Below, one piece after another: positions 11,566 to 20,100 of a stretch of 64,000 nucleotides of DNA. The notes under the pieces are model-generated. The model was not told the origin of the DNA. It worked only from the letters and a program-made list of their open reading frames with translations, and did no database searches. This stretch comes from Saccostrea cucullata. Lineage: Eukaryota. Numbering within the stretch: the stretch's first letter is position 1; the number at the start of each line of letters is the position of its first letter. Both the position numbers and the translations under genes were made by a program. The DNA lies in assembly GCF_032062105.1 (NCBI RefSeq), contig NW_026925642.1, positions 186,001 to 250,000 of the forward strand. The letters are read 5' to 3'.

Positions 11566-12175
11566 AGGGGATCGACTGGGGTTTCCATTGTGCAATTCTT
11601 TGCATATCATAGTAAAAGGAAGCATTCATTCTGTTTTAAAGCAACCTTTTTTTAAATAATTAATAAAATTTAACAAAATTAAGAAATTATAGGTTAAAAA
11701 AAATTAATAACAATTTTATATAACTGATTTTGAAGTGATTTTTCAACTGACTACCAAGAAGATTGACATTGTAATAGCGTGCTTTTGACATTATGATAAA
11801 CTGAAGCTCTTGAAGAGGGGGTCATAAAAATGTCAAAACCTCTTGCAATATAAAACATAGGAATTTGAGATTCTTTTAATCATTTTTATGATTTTTTGTA
11901 TAAATTCCTTGTATCTTTCATATTTTATAGTACAGGTACTCCAATTGTAGTATTTGTATAATTTGCTTTAAATTGTGAAAAATTGGCACTTTCTAAACTA
12001 AAAGTAATCCTATAGTAAATGTACCTGTATTTTGAGACAGTCCAATAAAATACCAGGGTGGTAGATTTTCCCCAAACTTGGTATGTACACTGAAGTCAGT
12101 GTAAGTAACATATGTTATTAAATTAAAGAGTTTCTCTATTGTAGTTTTCACACAATAAAACCCCAGTTGGCTCCC
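11566..12175. mobile_element. TTAA-flanked MITE (Kolobok-like)
   Basis: ttaa|aggggatcgactgggg...ccccagttggctccc|ttaa: imperfect TIR. Confidence 0.55.
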
Positions 12176-12477
12176 TTAATTACTGTATTACATTTCTTTC
12201 TCAGGGCAAAAGAGAGTTAACAAGTCTGATCATGAGTAATGTCTAGAATCTGTCTGGTATCAACAATTATGTAACAGCAATCTCATCATTCACTTCAACC
12301 AGATAAATAATTTACTCATGGCATTAGGCATTATTTCAGGAGAGCTTCCTCCACAAGTTCATAAACATTCACAGGTTTCTAACATATCACAGGATTATTT
12401 CATTTAGATTTAAACAATAAAGCAGCTGCAGTGTTATCCATGAAAGCTAAGAAATGATTCATCCTCTATACACAACG

Positions 12478-15400
12478 TCAAGAAAAGGACTGAAGATTAT
12501 TTGCTCTGAGTTTCCTTTCATTCATCTTCATACATTCGTTCATCGTGCTTGCCATAAAGTCTCTCTCATTGGCAAAGGCAATGGCTTCGTCCCTTTTCCT
12601 TGACCTGTACCCCCTGAGTACCGCTGTGTGGGGGTTGTCCTTAGCCTCGGGGTGGTGTGATTTGTATTTAAACTCCATTCTTGTGATGACTGGCAGACAG
12701 AGGCCATTGGGGAGTGGTACAAGGTCGTTACCTGTCCGCCTGTCTACGTACTCCGGGTGTTTTTTGCGTACAGCTACGACGTCAGACAATGACTGCTCCC
12801 TGGCTTGTTCCAGATCTGTCAGGACTCGGGCAGGGTAGGTCTCTCCTGTAGAAATCAATTAAATAGAAAGAGCTTATTATATAGAATAAAAAATCTGATG
12901 GGTTCAGTCCATATCCAGTTTAAAAATTTTGGGACAAGCTTCAAAAGCATCAAATTTTAAGCCTTACAGAATAAATTCCCGTATCATATTGCTTTGTAGG
13001 AAATCGGGAATGAATAATATCCAAAAAATTTCAAGTACATTTGCCATATTCCATGAGTCAATTTAATTTCTTCAATAAGGATCCAATTTTACCCTTATGA
13101 GCTAAAATATCTGATTTTTTACACAAATTTTTAAGGATACCCTAAATAAGATCCATGTATGGAACTCACCTAATTTTACACCACATCTTCTGAGAATGGA
13201 GGGGGGACATTTCCAGGGCTGGTGTATGAAGTCATTAGGGAGAGAGGCGATCTCTGGGCACCAGCGTCTAACATAAGCCCCATCTGGGTCACAGGTCAAG
13301 GCCGCATCCACGGGATGCATGACAAAATTCCACTGGTCCAGACCACTCATACCACCATTCTGCCACATCATGGCGTTAATAGCCACATCAGCATCCAGCA
13401 GAGTGTCCTAAATAATTCATAATGTCAATAAATCTCAGTGCTTTCTTCTACAAAAATCCTTAAATAAGTAATCGTTTGTTGAAATCCTTCAATTTACTTC
13501 AGTCTTTTAGAATTACTCTCTTTATAAAGCTTACCATGAATTAGTACTGACAATACAGTGTCAAAAAGACCCTTTCTTTAAATAAAAGATTATATTGATT
13601 TCTGTATTCATTGTACACACTAATTTTGCATTAAATAAAATATTTGAAGTATTTTACACCAAGTTTAAATGAAAGACAATGACGAGTAATTTTATTTGTT
13701 GTTATAGTTCCAATTGTACATGCAGTTACAGTTATTTTGTAATCCAGTGAGAAATTTTATCATAAGACAGTGTGAAAACATTAGGTTTAATCTTCAAATA
13801 AGTGATATAGCATTTTTATTGTTATTTTACTCCTATAATACAGTAATGAATAGTCAAAAAACTGTGCTATGATATTGTCAGGGGAAAAAAATATACTGGT
13901 ATACTCTTCTTTTAAAGACATTAAATCAAATTCAAAATATGTTTTTAAAAATCAATAAAATTAACCATCAATGCAAGATATAAATAAATCATGTTTATAC
14001 CTGGAACCACCTGTATCCCTCCACCCAGTGAATACGGAGGTAGGATATGAGGAAGGAAGCCACCACGTGCCTGAGGTAGTTATTGATCCACCCCTCTAAC
14101 CACAGTTGTCTCATAGCAGCATCCACCAGAGGGAACCCTGTCCTTCCCCTCTGCCAAGCCTTCAAGTGATCCCTGTTGCTGCTCCAGGCCTGATCCTTTG
14201 ATGAAAAAAATACCATAAAAAATATCATATATATTTGGATGTGAGAGGGAGTGAGTGACCTAGAATTGATTTGGGTTTTTTCCCCAAATTCTTATTTAAA
14301 AAATTTTGTTTATTTGGATTGATACTATTTTCCTATTCAACTCTACAAAGTCAAAAAAGAACTCCATGAAATAGTCGTACCCTGTAATGGACCCTGGTAG
14401 GTTGTGACGGGAGATCTGGCCACAGAGACAACAGCCAGTAGGAGAGGTCTCTCCAGGCCAGCTTTCTGAGGAACTTGGGGGATTTCATGTGTCTGGCCTC
14501 CTCCAGTATAGCGCGGGGACTGATCTGGCCGAAGTGAAGATAGGGAGAGATTCTGCAGGTGTTCAGATGATCTGCCCGACACGACTCCTTCTCATATTTC
14601 CTCACACCTACAAAAACAGGAACATGGTTAAGGAAACAAATCTAGCCAATTTATTGAATTTAAATTAATACAGTTAATATATACCCCTAGAGGCATAGAA
14701 GATGAATGTTTACCTTCAGACAAAAAGAGCTCTAAAGCATTCCAAGCTCCATTCTCTCCAAAATCCCATTTTTCTACAATAGGTGCTGCCCAGTTTATCT
14801 AAAGATATGAGATGCATGTTAACGAATCTAAATATTCAAATATATTAATGACTTCCATCATATGTAGAATACTGTACAATTTTTTAATTGCTTACAATCA
14901 TAGTAGTGTTCCCCTACATAAAATTTAATAAATTGTCCCAAATTATCTGTCAGATTTAGACTATATTAGATGAATTAGCCAAAAATCAGATTTCAGTCCT
15001 TTTTTCCCCTTGAAAATTGCTTCTTTAAAGTCCCCTTCTTAGCATGGATCTTAGTCCCTGTAAAATTTGATTTTGGGGATTAATATTTGTAAAGACATGA
15101 AAGATGGTCTATAAAATTTAACAGAAATATAGCTTCTGCAAAAAAATCTTTTGATTTCCAGAAATATGAGAAATCTGATTCTGCATGATAATGGACTTAA
15201 CATATACATTTGTAATATACAAATTGACAACAGTGCAAATAAAATTATTTAAAATGTGTTTCAAATGAATCACACTACTATTAAGGTAAAAAATTACAAT
15301 AGTTCCATCTTTTCTCCTTGGCATCTTTGCCAGTCCTAAGTCAGATAGAGACATGCTGATTTGATACTGTTCAGGTCTGGGCAGTGTCCCGGGGGCCTCC

Positions 15401-16449
15401 AGAGGATGTCCTATGGGCTGAGTAGAGGACTGTCTACAACACTCCATGAAGTGAGTCACTGAGCCAATACCTCTCATCCCAAGGGACTCGGTGGACACTG
15501 AGTCTGGCTCATGTAACAAGTAGGAAGGAAAACGTTTACAGTTGATTCCCCTTTTCTGAAGCTGTTCACAAATTTTGTCATCTCTCTGCTTGAGAAATGG
15601 CTCATAAATATCATTAATGATAAATGTTTTAGCACCAGTTTCATCCATCAATTTCATAATTTCTTTCTGATATGAGTCTGTTTTTCTGAATATTATTTCA
15701 TTTTCATATTTGTCGGCAACTGATTTGTTTAATTCCTTCAAAGCGTGGTGTAGCCATAATTTTGTTGCACCCCCAGCAGCCACAACATTGTCTGGATCCT
15801 CTTCAGACTCTGACCAAAGGAAAGCTAATATTACAGGTGAGTTCATGCTGGCTGCTGCACATAGTGCTGGATTGTCATACAGGCGAAGGTCTCTCCTGAG
15901 CCAGTATAGTACAGGTCTTTGCAGCTGCTTATCCGAACTCTTACTACTTGCCCTGCCTTGCTTTTTCTTCTTTTTGGAAGATTGATTTGATGCTGTGTTG
16001 TTGGAAGCTTTAGATATTTCTGTAATTTGGACTTGAGCTTTCTTTACTTCACTTTTTGAATTAGATACACTAGATCTATTTGATTTGACATGCAGGATAC
16101 TGGCATATGAAGATTCTGGGTTTTCTTTCTGTTCTATAGAAAGCGCAGATGCAAGCTCTACATCTAATTCATACCCAAAGTCACTCGTCAAATATCCATT
16201 CTCAACACTACAACCTATTGGATCCGTGAACGTGTCAGAAGGAGGCTTTTCAAAGTAGTTTACATAAATGTTGCAAAGTTGATGGTACTTTTCTGTGTTT
16301 GTGAGCTGTAAAGCGTCAATGTACTCCAAAAAATGTTGTCTGGTAGAATCGTATCCATCAAGTGAAACTATTAAGCAAAAGCATTCTTCAGCAGAAGTTA
16401 TCCCTGATATAAAATTCTGTAATATTTCCTTTACGCGTGTCGTCTCCAT
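12478..16449 (-). CDS. Plant-like cryptochrome / photolyase family protein (PCRY-like), 6 exons, 754 aa
   Basis: Exons 16449-15298, 14798-14714, 14607-14381, 14195-14001, 13407-13170, 12845-12478; all GT-AG with consistent phases. Motifs: WLRRDLRLYDNPAL, GGATKLWLHHAL (plant CRY/class III CPD type), ISPYLHFGQISPR, WQRGRTGFPLVDAAMRQLW, DTLLDADVAINAMMWQ, DPDGAYVRRWCPE. Confidence 0.92.
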
Positions 16450-17103
16450 TGTCAAAAAGAAAGTTTACATAACCTGGATCGGAATCTCTCTAGACTTTAC
16501 AAAGGGCATCTGATCCCGATGCAATAAGCTCTATCTGACAGTCCAAAAAACGATAATTTTTAGGGAAAACATTTAATGTCAAGCAGAACAAAATTTAACG
16601 ATAATTCATGGGCCAACAGAAAATTCGGACTTCAATCATTGATCCGTTTATGTATATATATATTTTTTTTTATTTAAGAATCGGGTTCGATATTCTAATA
16701 ATTGTAGTGTCGTTGATTGTCGGAAAATTCCGTGGAAAATAATTATTTTAAAAGATGAATAAAATTAGATTTCACAAAGATTGATTGAAGCTAAAACAAA
16801 ATTATATATGTGATAAATATTACTTTTGGTTTAAAAGTTTTTACTCCATCCAATCAAAAAACGCCAACTTTAGCTTAGTGACGTCATATTGAAGTTCGAC
16901 ATTTCTTATCAAAACACAGTCTAATTGAGCAAGTAAGGAAGGTGATTTTCATTTGTTTTAATTGTATGTCATTGGTAAATACTGATATCTTTAATTATCA
17001 AAAGAATTATTGAAATAAAAGACACCCGCAAAGCTAGTTTTACTGCAGCTTAATTCAGTTGTAATTGTTTACTTCCACTTTTGTTTTCTATAGGTCTAAT
17101 AGG
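16450..17103. promoter_or_regulatory. Bidirectional promoter between cryptochrome and HERPUD
   Basis: Start codons 654 bp apart. D-box TTATGTAA (-) at 16465-16472, CCAAT at 16850, CRE TGACGTCA at 16879-16886. Probable HERPUD 5'UTR intron 16933-17093. Confidence 0.6.
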
Positions 17104-20100
17104 ATGGATATAAATGTACCCGTGACTTTGGTCATTCGTGCTCCTAACCAGAGAGTCGAGGATCACACGGTTGAATGTATGTTAGGATGGACAGTGAAGA
17201 AGTTGAAGAGGCATTTAGAGGTCGTCTACCCTAGTAACCCTGTGAGTGTTAAAACTATGCTGTGTATCTGTTGGCTAAAGGGGTGATAACTAGGTGTTGA
17301 ATTGTAAATTTTTGAAACTCAACATGTCATATCGTAGACAGCAGGAATGGCAAATTCAAAAGCACATTAGTACGTTATGAAAATTTGTCTGCACAGCTGT
17401 CAGTGTTATGATGCATTGAACATCTATAATTTACAGTTCAATGCTTTTATTTAATTTAATAATTTTAATTTAATAATTTCGTTAAAAGATGTTGTAGACC
17501 CGGTTTAAAGGCTTTTAATGTAGCAAAAGAAACACACTTGTTAGTGCATTTACTAGGAACATTAGAGAAATGTAAACATGGCAGGTAAATTTGAAGCGAG
17601 AGAAAAACGTTGAGAAAATTAATTAGATTTTCGTATTTATATGGATTATTTTTTGGGATAAAAGGCATAAGCAATCTCAAAAAAGTTTTTTGATTATTTT
17701 GGTAGTTATTTCCAGTGCAAATCATTTTATATTCTTCAAAATCATTTCGGAGCGGATCCGCTCTGAATTGCAACATTGCACAGGGCTCTCACACCACTTT
17801 TTGGGACTGGGGCCGGGGCCGTTCAAATTGGGAAAATTATCGTCATTTTGGGAAAAGTTGGATAACACAAATTCATTTTAAAAAAAATCCTCAAATTTTG
17901 CTTTTCTAGCATTTTATCATCAATGCTAACTCTGGTTTTACAAACATTTTATGAAAGTATAGCTTTGTATTACTATCTTTGAGTGTTGATATAGCGGATA
18001 TGTCAACTGCGTGACAGTCATCCACAACACCTCCTCGATCACATGGGCAACTTTTTACCAATACAACTGAACATGCCGAAGCGCGGGTATGTTTCTAGGT
18101 GCAGCTTACTAATGTTTAAATGAAATGTCTATTTTTGAAACCAAAATGCTGGTTTTTGTCGAAACTACATAACAAGATACTCTGCACTGTAATTGTATAC
18201 ATTTTTAGGTCACCTGAGTAAACTCAAGGACCTAGATTCCCGTCCGTTAACATTTGAACATTTTCAGCTTTTCTCTGCAACCACTGAACCAATTTCCAAA
18301 TTTGGTACAAAGTCATGTGACTTCATGGTCGTGTAATATTCATGGAACGTTTTGGAACACGATTTTTATGATGTTGAAAAATAAAACAATTCATGCAGCT
18401 TGGAATAAAAGTAAGACAACAACAGAAATACGTTTAAATTATTTTTAAAACAGTTACAACAAAACACATTGCAGTATGCAGAATTAAAAAATGTATTAGG
18501 ATTAAAAATAATATAATTAAATTCATCTATTAAAAAATGCATTTGAAGGGTTAACTCGATTTTAATTTTTAGAAAAAAAATGTTTTCTTGTTGGAATACT
18601 TTTGATAATCAAGGTAAATACATGGTTGTCGAATGGTTTTGTACATAGAATTTTGACAAAATTGTGAATTTTCATGCCACGATTTTATTGCGAATTCTTT
18701 GAAAATCTTCTTCTCTGCCGCAATTGGAGTGCCTCTACCAAAAGAAACTACTACAATTAGATTATATATAATCATTATAATTTTATTTGGGTATTAAGCG
18801 ATCATTATGATTGATTTCTCCAGAATTGTGAATTTCAAACAGGGGTAAATGCATTTGCCATACTTTCGAGCTATATTTTTGAAAAGCAAGGGTGCCTCAA
18901 AAATTTGCAATGTGTGGATCAGCCCTTCATGTGTGATTGCAGCGAACATAAAACGAAAGTACCCCCACACCTGCCTATGGGCAGAAACAAATAAGCAACT
19001 GCTAAGTGTATTGTTATGATGATCGCTTTCAAAATTGTGAATGCCATAGCATCTTGCTTAAAAATTAATCAAATTAAATTGGAAAGTTGTTCATAATGCT
19101 CAGGTTATATTCAAAATTTTGTAATTAATTACAAATAAAAGAAAGACCATTTCTTTCATTTGCAAATGTGTTTTGTTTGGGTTTTTTTTTTTTGCGATTA
19201 AGTTTGATGGACTTTTATTTTTTAATTAATATTTTTTTTTGGGAAATTTACACCTTTCTGGAAAAAAATTTTAACATTAGGCAATTTTAAAAGCCCTGAT
19301 TGCAAGTATATGGGACGTATTCTACCTGTGGTGAGGGCTTGTACCGAGACACAGTTAGATTATTCTAACTAGTAGTCTAGAGGCTTTTATCGCACTTTAA
19401 AAGGACATTACCTATGGAGTGTAAATATAGATTTTGTTGATTTTAGAAAGTCTACTCCCTGATCATATAATATAGCAAAATGAATATACGTTTTGATTGA
19501 AGCGAATAATTGATAATTCATATTAGATGATGCAATGTTAGAGAGTTAAAAAGTGCTCTATAAGTATTAAAAAATAAATTATAAATAAAAACTATCAGGC
19601 ACCATAATTATTAATCAACATCATTTATCAACATAATACTGTTACTACATTTTAATGTTCTTAACTTTCAGAAAGAAACACAGCAAAGGCTAATATACTC
19701 TGGAAAGTTGTTAGCCGATGAAATGACATTGAAAGAAATTATCATCCAGGTACTGAATTTAAAATAAAATACTCAATGTTTGTGATGTAAGCTTCATTAA
19801 GGAGGATTTCTACACCTGTGAAGTAAAATTGAATTTTGTTACATGCATTCATTTCTAATATACTCGTGCAATATCCAATGAAATAAGGTTGAACGTTCCA
19901 AAGTATTTCTGAATCACTTTATTTTTTTCAAAATATCTAAAAATATTGAATTCATTTTGTAAAATTTAAATGGTCAAAATTAGGTAAAATAAATTCATAT
20001 AACGAACTTCCTATCTCGTTTTAAATATGCACATTTTCCATACAAAAAAGCTGATAATCAATGTCGATCAAATGTTTGAGTTATAAAATATTTCAACTTA

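What the first reader, a model, noticed from the sequence alone, without database searches (positions are those of the whole stretch)
12478..16449. Plant-like cryptochrome in an animal, with a hybrid active site and long extensions
Seen: a full PHR domain whose N-part (GGATKLWLHHAL) resembles plant CRY/class III CPD photolyases rather than animal CRY1/2. The residue four before the proximal Trp (plant CRY Asp396 position) is Asn (DADVAINAMMWQ). The motif WINNYLRH keeps the second but not the first catalytic His of the (6-4) photolyase motif WIHHLARH. There is an N-terminal extension of about 175 aa with a basic SKKKKKQ tract and a C-terminal tail of about 90 aa. Known: PCRY-like genes occur in marine invertebrates, but their function is poorly resolved. 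Inference: a nuclear flavoprotein with photochemistry unlike plant or animal CRYs.
Basis: partly seen in the sequence, partly recalled or inferred. Interest (0 to 1): 0.7.

Follow-up and report, generated by a model that had tools for sequence, protein, structure and literature searches.

The report
Oyster cryptochrome 6, ubiquitin-reading light sensor
This is an intact, spliced oyster copy of cryptochrome 6, a known but little-studied gene of aquatic animals, which has lost the DNA-repair residues of its enzyme relatives and likely works as a flavin light sensor that grips ubiquitin-tagged proteins.

Summary
Real six-exon gene (minus strand, 754 aa), spliced as predicted in RNA contigs of a close relative. 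The interpretation needs correcting. Asn564 is the family default, not a novelty. WINNYLRH is a class III CPD-photolyase helix that kept Asn341 and gained a His, not a half 6-4 site; three of five CPD substrate residues and 6-4 His1 are gone, so repair is unlikely. The N-terminal extension is published for Xenopus (four-helix domain, ubiquitin-interacting motif shown to bind polyubiquitin, NLS/NoLS), and full-length Xenopus CRY6 was cytoplasmic. Added here: (1) the re-lined pocket is invariant in 152-153 of 153 animal homologues, implying an unknown ligand; (2) ray-finned fish CRY6 independently gained the plant-type Asp (99 of 99 rows) while the oyster type keeps Asn, a natural photochemistry experiment; (3) the four-helix domain looks like a harmonin-homology/PAH hub domain (ZNF598-like) rather than KaiA, on weak evidence. 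Known kind, open function; interest modest.

The parts
15298..16449 (-). Exon 1, aa 1-384: N-terminal extension and alpha/beta domain
   Evidence: RNA contigs
14714..14798 (-). Exon 2, aa 385-412; holds Trp387 (aligns with a Trp of PhrA recalled as an MTHF-stacking residue)
14381..14607 (-). Exon 3, aa 413-488: FAD phosphate-binding motif, Lys461 (E. coli Glu274 site), WRDLSY (pl2 motif)
14001..14195 (-). Exon 4, aa 489-553: triad Trp492 and Trp545, WINNYLRH
13170..13407 (-). Exon 5, aa 554-632: Asp558, Asp560, Asn564, Trp568, MWQNGG (pl3 motif)
12478..12845 (-). Exon 6, aa 633-754 and stop: end of PHR and conserved tail
16249..16443 (-). Four-helix N-terminal domain, aa 3-67; predicted HHD/PAH-like (alpha-alpha hub) fold; animal CRY6 only
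   Evidence: model pLDDT about 80-92; structure search; atlas; distribution
16129..16179 (-). Ubiquitin-interacting motif, aa 91-107 (FGYELDVELASALSIEQ), homologue of the Xenopus DI-UIM
   Evidence: alignment; Pfam UIM in 12 of 39 aligned members, sub-threshold; Xenopus pull-down
15958..15978 (-). Basic tract SKKKKKQ, aa 158-164, at the place of the Xenopus NLS/NoLS, at the end of a Ser/Lys-rich low-confidence linker (aa 107-177)
14067..14090 (-). WINNYLRH, aa 524-531: Asn527 (E. coli Asn341 / 6-4 His1), Tyr528 (Arg342), Arg530 (Arg344), His531 (Met345 / 6-4 His2)
13360..13395 (-). DADVAINAMMWQ, aa 558-569, with Asn564 facing flavin N5 (codon 13377-13375)
12481..12777 (-). C-terminal tail, aa 656-754: predicted beta-hairpin part shared with protist CryP-like proteins, then an animal-specific long helix
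16465..16472 (-). D-box-like TTATGTAA 23 nt before the ATG, inside the transcribed 5' leader; weak lead

Best explanation
The gene encodes the oyster member of the CRY6/PCRY-like subfamily, a photolyase-fold protein with a re-lined repair pocket that likely acts as a non-repairing, FAD-based light sensor and adaptor for ubiquitin-tagged proteins. Shown here: gene structure, splicing, orthology, residue states, conservation. Inferred steps: (1) it binds FAD (all FAD contacts kept) and probably an MTHF antenna; (2) with Asn564 and an intact Trp568-545-492 chain it rests as the neutral radical FADH and is photoreduced to FADH-, as reported for diatom CryP, so it would respond beyond blue light; (3) it does not split CPD or 6-4 lesions, and the invariant, more basic pocket (Lys461, Trp464, Asn527, Tyr528, His531, Asn570) binds some other ligand, most simply its own conserved tail or a nucleotide; (4) the flavin state moves the tail and changes access to the N-terminal arm, whose UIM binds polyubiquitin (shown for Xenopus only) and whose four-helix hub domain would bind a partner helix; (5) it works mainly in the cytoplasm, with conditional nucleolar entry, as part of the daylight-induced protective gene set. 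Membership is near certain (0.97); the confidence below is for the mechanism.
For: Tree: animal CRY6 clade of 30 rows, SH-aLRT 100, includes Xenopus 'cryptochrome-6' and Takifugu; 63% PHR identity to Xenopus CRY6, 38% to a class III row, 28% to the oyster 6-4-like protein; published CgCRY6 row is nearly identical around the flavin site. FAD and triad residues kept. Of the five CPD substrate residues listed in PMC8476157 (Glu274, Trp277, Asn341, Met345, Trp384) only Trp277 and Asn341 remain; Arg342 is Tyr, the Arg397 position is deleted. The replacements are fixed: Lys461 152/153, Asn527, Tyr528, His531 153/153, Asn570 152/153. UIM core kept: Ala100 (31 of 32 homologues), Ser104 (32 of 32); Xenopus motif pulls down K48 chains. 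Diatom CryP holds FADH radical and MTHF (review passages). Asn versus Asp sets the flavin state in plant CRY and CPD photolyase mutants. Fugu Cry6 is induced about 4-fold by light; C. gigas pCry tends to peak by day.
Against: No animal CRY6 has been shown to bind FAD or respond to light (Okano 2023 lists this as future work). No repair assay was found for any animal member, so 'no repair' is inferred from residues. The oyster UIM has Ser101 where 29 of 32 homologues have L/I/V/M and 3 have K, and Pfam finds no UIM in P0001 itself. The flavin-site segment 557-581 is low confidence in the model. The hub-fold evidence is weak (Z 5.2-6.4, atlas 0.85, hhalign E 0.032). Which protist clade holds diatom CryP was not determined, so its photochemistry may not transfer.
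Confidence: 0.55

Rival explanations
1. Non-canonical repair or lesion-binding factor: it binds UV-damaged single-stranded DNA or RNA through the basic re-lined pocket, repairs it slowly as FADH- or hands it on through ubiquitin contacts.
For: Asn564 allows the fully reduced flavin that repair needs; Trp464 and Asn527 kept; pocket invariant and more basic; Fugu Cry6 is co-induced with Xpc, Neil1, CPD and 6-4 photolyase and DASH; D-box-like site shared with the oyster 6-4 gene; the N-domain lead points to ZNF598, a ribosome-collision ligase (role recalled).
Against: Glu274, Arg342, Met345, Trp384 and 6-4 His1 all replaced; fish members carry Asp, which disfavours FADH-; the genome already has 6-4, CPD II and DASH genes.
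Confidence: 0.2
2. Nuclear clock photoreceptor or transcriptional regulator.
For: Basic tract conserved in position; rhythmic or light-driven expression in oyster and fish; PAH-type domains serve transcriptional hubs.
Against: Full-length GFP-XtCRY6 was cytoplasmic in HEK293 cells; C. gigas pCry had no E-box match near its start; the oyster has separate DCRY-like and MCRY-like genes.
Confidence: 0.13
3. Light-independent scaffold or redox sensor that keeps the fold and perhaps FAD but does not use photons.
For: Xenopus mRNA is highest in gonads with no ZT0/ZT11 difference; the flavin-facing residue can change between Asn and Asp.
Against: Triad Trp492/545/568 kept in 150-153 of 153 rows and Trp387/Trp520 in 151-153 of 153; restriction to aquatic animals.
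Confidence: 0.12

Closest known systems
Xenopus tropicalis CRY6 (Okano et al. 2023, PMC11520951)
   Same: Orthologue; 63% PHR and 58% tail identity; same order of four-helix domain, UIM, basic tract, PHR, tail; Asn at the flavin site.
   Different: Oyster linker and tail are shorter (754 vs 862 aa); Ser at a hydrophobic UIM position; a bivalve-specific SVENG segment before the UIM.
Crassostrea gigas CgpCry / CgCRY6 AQM57607 (PMC5224872)
   Same: Direct oyster orthologue; long N-terminal extension already noted; near-identical flavin-site rows.
   Different: Different oyster; no function known for either.
Ray-finned fish Cry6 (zebrafish si:ch1073-390k14.1, Takifugu TrCry6)
   Same: Orthologue, 60% PHR identity, same pocket signature.
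   Different: Asp instead of Asn at the flavin N5 position in 99 of 99 such rows, as in plant CRY.
Diatom CryP (Phaeodactylum), plant-like cryptochrome
   Same: Same subfamily by published trees and motifs pl2/pl3; unnamed protist-type rows share Lys/Arg at 461, Asn564, Asn570 and the first part of the tail.
   Different: The protist-type rows lack the four-helix domain and the distal tail; one of two protist clades has Q-N-V-R-M instead of N-Y-M-R-H. CryP itself was not in my set.
Agrobacterium PhrA, class III CPD photolyase (PDB 4U63)
   Same: Best solved match by sequence (E 1.5e-80) and fold (E 3.7e-33, TM 0.89 on the target); triad and Asn kept.
   Different: PhrA keeps Glu, Arg, Met, Trp of the CPD pocket; no extensions.
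Arabidopsis CRY1 (plant CRY)
   Same: Second-ranked fold; triad Trp400/377/324 = Trp568/545/492.
   Different: Asp396 is Asn; plant motifs absent; tail unrelated (10% identity to a plant-type row); the tree leaves plant CRY, class I/III and the CryP-like clade unresolved.

Membership tests
PCRY-like / CRY6 | Groups with named CRY6 proteins, apart from 6-4/animal CRY, plant CRY and CPD I/III | tested here: met
   30-row animal clade, SH-aLRT 100; quick LG+G4 tree of 95 rows; no DASH, MCRY or DCRY rows were included
PCRY-like / CRY6 | Motif pl3 MWQNxG | tested here: met
   MWQNGG at 567 (motif)
PCRY-like / CRY6 | Motif pl2 WRDLAY | tested here: met
   WRDLSY at 464, the variant of 25 of 120 homologues
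PCRY-like / CRY6 | Motif pl1 VGLR (74% of members) | tested here: inconclusive
   LGMR at the homologous place, as in Mytilus
PCRY-like / CRY6 | N-terminal extension with four-helix domain, UIM and basic NLS/NoLS | tested here: met
   against the description
PCRY-like / CRY6 | FAD radical and MTHF bound (known for diatom CryP) | not testable with these tools
   binding residues kept; needs purified protein
Class I/III CPD photolyase | Substrate residues Glu274, Trp277, Asn341, Met345, Trp384 | tested here: not met
   2 of 5 kept; Lys461, His531, Asn570 instead
Class I/III CPD photolyase | FAD contacts and Trp triad | tested here: met
   Arg530, Asp558, Asp560, Asn564; Trp492/545/568; Gly381 is Met567
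(6-4) photolyase | HHLARH with catalytic His1 and His2, Tyr partner of His2 | tested here: not met
   His1 is Asn527; His531 present; the RVYSP Tyr aligns to Met583
Plant cryptochrome | Asp396 proton donor | tested here: not met
   Asn564; met by fish orthologues
CRY-DASH | DASH family score and MSNRGRQ motif | tested here: not met
   TIGR02765 gives 60.6 bits on exon 4, with better-scoring DASH genes on two other contigs; motif differs
Ubiquitin-interacting motif | Acidic patch, hydrophobic-x-x-Ala-hydrophobic-x-x-Ser helix | tested here: inconclusive
   Val97, Ala100, Ser104 kept, position 101 polar; no Pfam hit in the oyster protein, sub-threshold hits in 12 of 39 aligned members
alpha-alpha hub (PAH/HHD) domain | Small four/five-helix fold superposing on HHD or PAH | tested here: inconclusive
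   whirlin HHD2 rank 1 of 48,161 (Z 6.4, rmsd 2.6, 61 aligned); harmonin, PDZD7, CCM2, RTEL1 within the top 23 (Z 5.2-5.7); all below the Z of 8-13 that the tool calls safe; Foldseek nothing
alpha-alpha hub (PAH/HHD) domain | Helix hairpin with short link and hydrophobic anchor | tested here: inconclusive
   Gly16 in 34 of 38, hydrophobic at 18 in about two thirds, Thr in the oyster; loop geometry not inspected
PAH_ZNF598 (PF23202) | Sequence homology | tested here: inconclusive
   atlas top three clusters, 0.83-0.85; hhalign to the oyster ZNF598 domain E 0.032, probability 1.6%; HMM 2.8 bits at the right place; no Pfam hit in 39 members

The most novel reading that the evidence does not exclude
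Animal CRY6 is a light-gated quality-control adaptor: a ZNF598-like PAH hub domain and a UIM were grafted onto a protist cryptochrome whose invariant basic pocket reads UV-damaged RNA or a nucleotide signal, linking sunlight to ubiquitin-dependent ribosome or nucleolar surveillance; and ray-finned fish retuned it, independently of plants, from a broad-spectrum Asn sensor to a blue-light Asp sensor.
Probability: 0.1. Interest if true: 0.8.

Novelty: new member of a known kind. Interest (0 to 1): 0.38.

Why it matters
CRY6 is the last widespread animal cryptochrome without a known job, and a candidate light sensor in marine animals. The gene itself is not new. The useful yield is a set of sharp tests: an oyster/fish pair that differs naturally at the residue that sets flavin chemistry (Asp was held to mark plant cryptochromes), a pocket fixed across molluscs, crustaceans and vertebrates that must bind something, and a candidate partner-binding hub domain next to a ubiquitin-binding helix.

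Tried and rejected
Hybrid 6-4 site: rejected, the other 6-4 residues are absent and the helix is class III-derived. Horizontal transfer into oysters (proposed in PMC9498864): not supported; in both trees the oyster sits with other pteriomorph bivalves inside molluscs and the animal rows form one clade, as PMC10733189 also argued. Contamination or pseudogene: rejected (introns, open frame, spliced contigs, animal neighbour). KaiA/RbsU fold for the N-domain: not among the 50 listed matches, which does not exclude it. Foldseek and PDB sequence search for the N-domain found nothing. Tail: atlas search gave only unnamed clusters at 0.80-0.82 with low feature counts; no fold assigned. No complex model of PHR with tail was obtained, so docking of the tail is untested. 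A metagenome scan for more ZNF598 PAH sequences gave 2 weak loci of 410 candidates and was not used. Plasmid search for outgroups gave no usable DASH row. D-box: 11 matches in the window against 9.0 expected, so not significant alone; present in 1 of 5 paralogous genes (6-4, both copies, at -82), absent within 1.5 kb of the presumed ATG of MCRY-like, DCRY-like, DASH and CPD II; unchanged in a relative's contigs but at a divergence where that is expected. The PhrA paper could not be found, so the MTHF role of PhrA Trp196/Trp336 is recalled. No earlier finding of this scan matched.
Full report
Gene. The finding covers a six-exon gene on the minus strand, 16449-12478, with five GT-AG introns of 499, 106, 185, 593 and 324 nt and an open frame of 754 codons. 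The spliced product is identical to database protein P0001, which its source names 'deoxyribodipyrimidine photo-lyase-like [Saccostrea cucullata]'. I laid 4 of the 24 runs listed; contigs of all four (three studies; two runs RNA on record, two guessed; a relative a few per cent divergent) skip all five introns at the predicted places. A search of the genome with exon 4 found this copy and four weaker paralogous exons; further searches located separate 6-4-like, MCRY-like, DCRY-like, DASH and class II CPD genes.

Identity. Pfam gives the two photolyase domains at 180-336 and 458-654. The best solved match by sequence and fold is the class III CPD photolyase PhrA, then plant CRYs, then 6-4 photolyases. 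The nearest database proteins are from bivalves, gastropods, a hemichordate, Artemia, amphibians (one named cryptochrome-6) and ray-finned fish. A tree of 95 chosen rows (quick IQ-TREE, LG+G4, rooted on eight 6-4-like and cnidarian rows; no DASH, MCRY or DCRY rows) puts the oyster with Mytilus and Tegillarca inside a mollusc group, inside a 30-row animal clade (SH-aLRT 100). Its sister is a 12-row clade of mostly unnamed, protist-type proteins with N-Y-[ML]-R-H; a second such group has Q-N-x-R-M. The relation of this whole CryP-like clade to plant CRY and class I/III is unresolved. The 'protist' label rests on one named green alga and two clusters with eukaryote sources among ten looked up. 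Motifs pl2 and pl3 of Deppisch et al. are present (passages read). The C. gigas orthologue and its long N-terminus were described in 2017 (passages).

Flavin site. Mapped on E. coli photolyase fetched here, the protein keeps Tyr222, Thr234, Ser238, Arg278, Trp338, Arg344, Asp372, Asp374, Asn378 and the triad Trp306/359/382 (Trp492/545/568). Asn564 is therefore the ordinary photolyase state: 16 of 16 class I/III rows, 6 of 6 6-4 rows and 33 of 34 protist-type rows have it, and a review states that Asp396 is what sets plant CRY apart, with Asn favouring FADH radical in the dark and FADH- in light (passages). Diatom CryP is isolated with FADH radical and MTHF (review passages; primary papers not read). 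Trp387 and Trp520 align with two PhrA tryptophans that I recall as stacking MTHF (paper not held) and are kept in 151 and 153 of 153 animal rows.

The Asn/Asp switch. Among 153 animal rows (hits plus P0121-P0123) the site is Asp in 100, Asn in 52, missing in 1. The Asp rows are all named ray-finned fish from gar to pufferfish, ten unnamed rows (two placed among fish by tree, eight not placed) and one frog, Mantella. On a tree of 72 of these rows built without that column, two changes suffice: the fish stem and Mantella; the latter rests on one record. With protist outgroups at Asn, the fish Asp is derived and independent of plants. The published alignment of Okano et al. shows the same letters (supplement, part 1 of 15 and a term search), but the main text parts I read (1-4 of 5) do not discuss it, Deppisch et al. 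have no occurrence of 'asparagine', and a full-text search found no paper on it. Oliveri 2014 and subscription papers were not available and may have noted it.

Pocket. Of the five CPD substrate residues listed in PMC8476157 (one passage), Trp277 and Asn341 remain; Glu274 is Lys461, Met345 is His531, Trp384 is Asn570; Arg342 is Tyr528 and the Arg397 position is deleted. For 6-4 repair, His1 is Asn, and the Tyr that holds His2 in CraCRY (passages) aligns to Met583. The replacements are fixed in 152-153 of 153 animal rows, and Asn-x-x-Arg-His in 12 of 12 rows of the sister clade. Such fixation argues for a new ligand rather than decay; the ligand is unknown.

N-terminal arm. Okano et al. described in Xenopus CRY6 a four-helix domain, a DI-UIM that pulled down K48 polyubiquitin, and an NLS/NoLS peptide that went to the nucleolus while the full-length fusion stayed cytoplasmic. 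The oyster has all three in order. The four-helix domain (aa 3-67, pLDDT about 80-92) is found in 131 of 153 animal rows (most misses are shorter or partial records) and in none of the protist-type rows of the tree. A wide structural search ranks whirlin HHD2 first (Z 6.4, rmsd 2.6, 61 residues) and lists harmonin, PDZD7, CCM2 and RTEL1 HHDs in the top 23 of 48,161; all are below the level that the tool calls safe for helical bundles, and unrelated helical repeats are interleaved. Foldseek found nothing. The protein atlas returned PAH_ZNF598 clusters as its top three (0.83-0.85, a lead only), and the oyster's own ZNF598 PAH domain aligns in register but weakly. HHD and PAH belong to the alpha-alpha hubs, which bind amphipathic helices of disordered partners (parts 1-2 of 3 read). 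No listed paper joined cryptochromes to this fold (titles and abstract starts only). The oyster UIM keeps the invariant Ala and Ser but has Ser at a usually hydrophobic position.

Tail. Residues 656-745 are as conserved as much of the PHR (majority fraction 0.74-0.83). The model gives a beta-hairpin part at pLDDT 74-88 and a long helix of mixed confidence. The first part (G-x-D-x-V-x-L-P ... V-I-T-R-x-E-F) is recognisable in both protist groups, the distal part only in animals. Whether it covers the pocket is untested.

Expression context. Fugu Cry6 is induced about fourfold by blue light together with photolyases, Xpc and Neil1 (passages); C. gigas pCry tends to peak at ZT5 and correlates with Cry1 and 6-4; Xenopus mRNA is highest in gonads without a day-night difference. 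A D-box-like octamer lies 23 nt before the ATG and another 82 nt before both copies of the oyster 6-4 gene, but not near four other paralogues, and the window holds no more such sites than chance; a weak lead.

Verdict. A real, ordinary orthologue of a described subfamily whose function is open. Most likely a non-repairing flavin light sensor and ubiquitin adaptor (0.55); rivals are a lesion-binding or slow-repair factor (0.2), a nuclear clock component (0.13) and a light-independent scaffold (0.12).

Noticed in passing
homologues P0033-P0119, P0276-P0299 (fish) and P0011 (Mantella): Ray-finned fish CRY6 has Asp at the plant Asp396 position (99 of 99 rows), on a long branch, with four other fixed differences from Asn-type members (471, 482, 694, 733); one frog record has Asp too.
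   Followed up: yes
window 17104-17241 (+): First coding exon of a HERPUD2-like gene (E 2.4e-13 to PDB 2KDB), head to head with CRY6, 654 nt between start codons; present in RNA contigs. A TGACGTCA (CRE/ATF-type) octamer lies between them near 16879.
   Followed up: partly
L005 (G000:C5193:132853-132996, minus): The MCRY-like paralogue reads WIHNLARH: its first catalytic His is Asn, as in CRY6. Not checked in other oysters.
   Followed up: partly
L011 and L012 (G000:C1235:4743; C13259:42142): D-box-like octamer 82 nt before the ATG of both copies of the 6-4 photolyase gene, differing C/T at the degenerate position.
   Followed up: partly
window 11944-12180: Stretch just downstream of the gene on which many unrelated contigs pile up with loose ends; probably a dispersed repeat in or after the 3' UTR.
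   Followed up: no
G000 contigs C1235/C13259, C2139/C14663, C2694/C21301, C10178/C22989: 6-4, DASH, ZNF598 and CPD II genes each appear on two contigs (likely uncollapsed haplotypes), CRY6 on one; the CPD II exons on C10178 lie on both strands, suggesting an inversion or misassembly.
   Followed up: no
P0300-P0305: Cnidarian proteins of 990-1931 aa with several tandem cryptochrome domains (Montipora, Nematostella) topped the 6-4 search.
   Followed up: no
protist-type rows P0129-P0197: Two CryP-like groups differ at the pocket helix: N-Y-[ML]-R-H (sister to animals) and Q-N-x-R-M; both have Arg/Lys in place of Glu274.
   Followed up: partly
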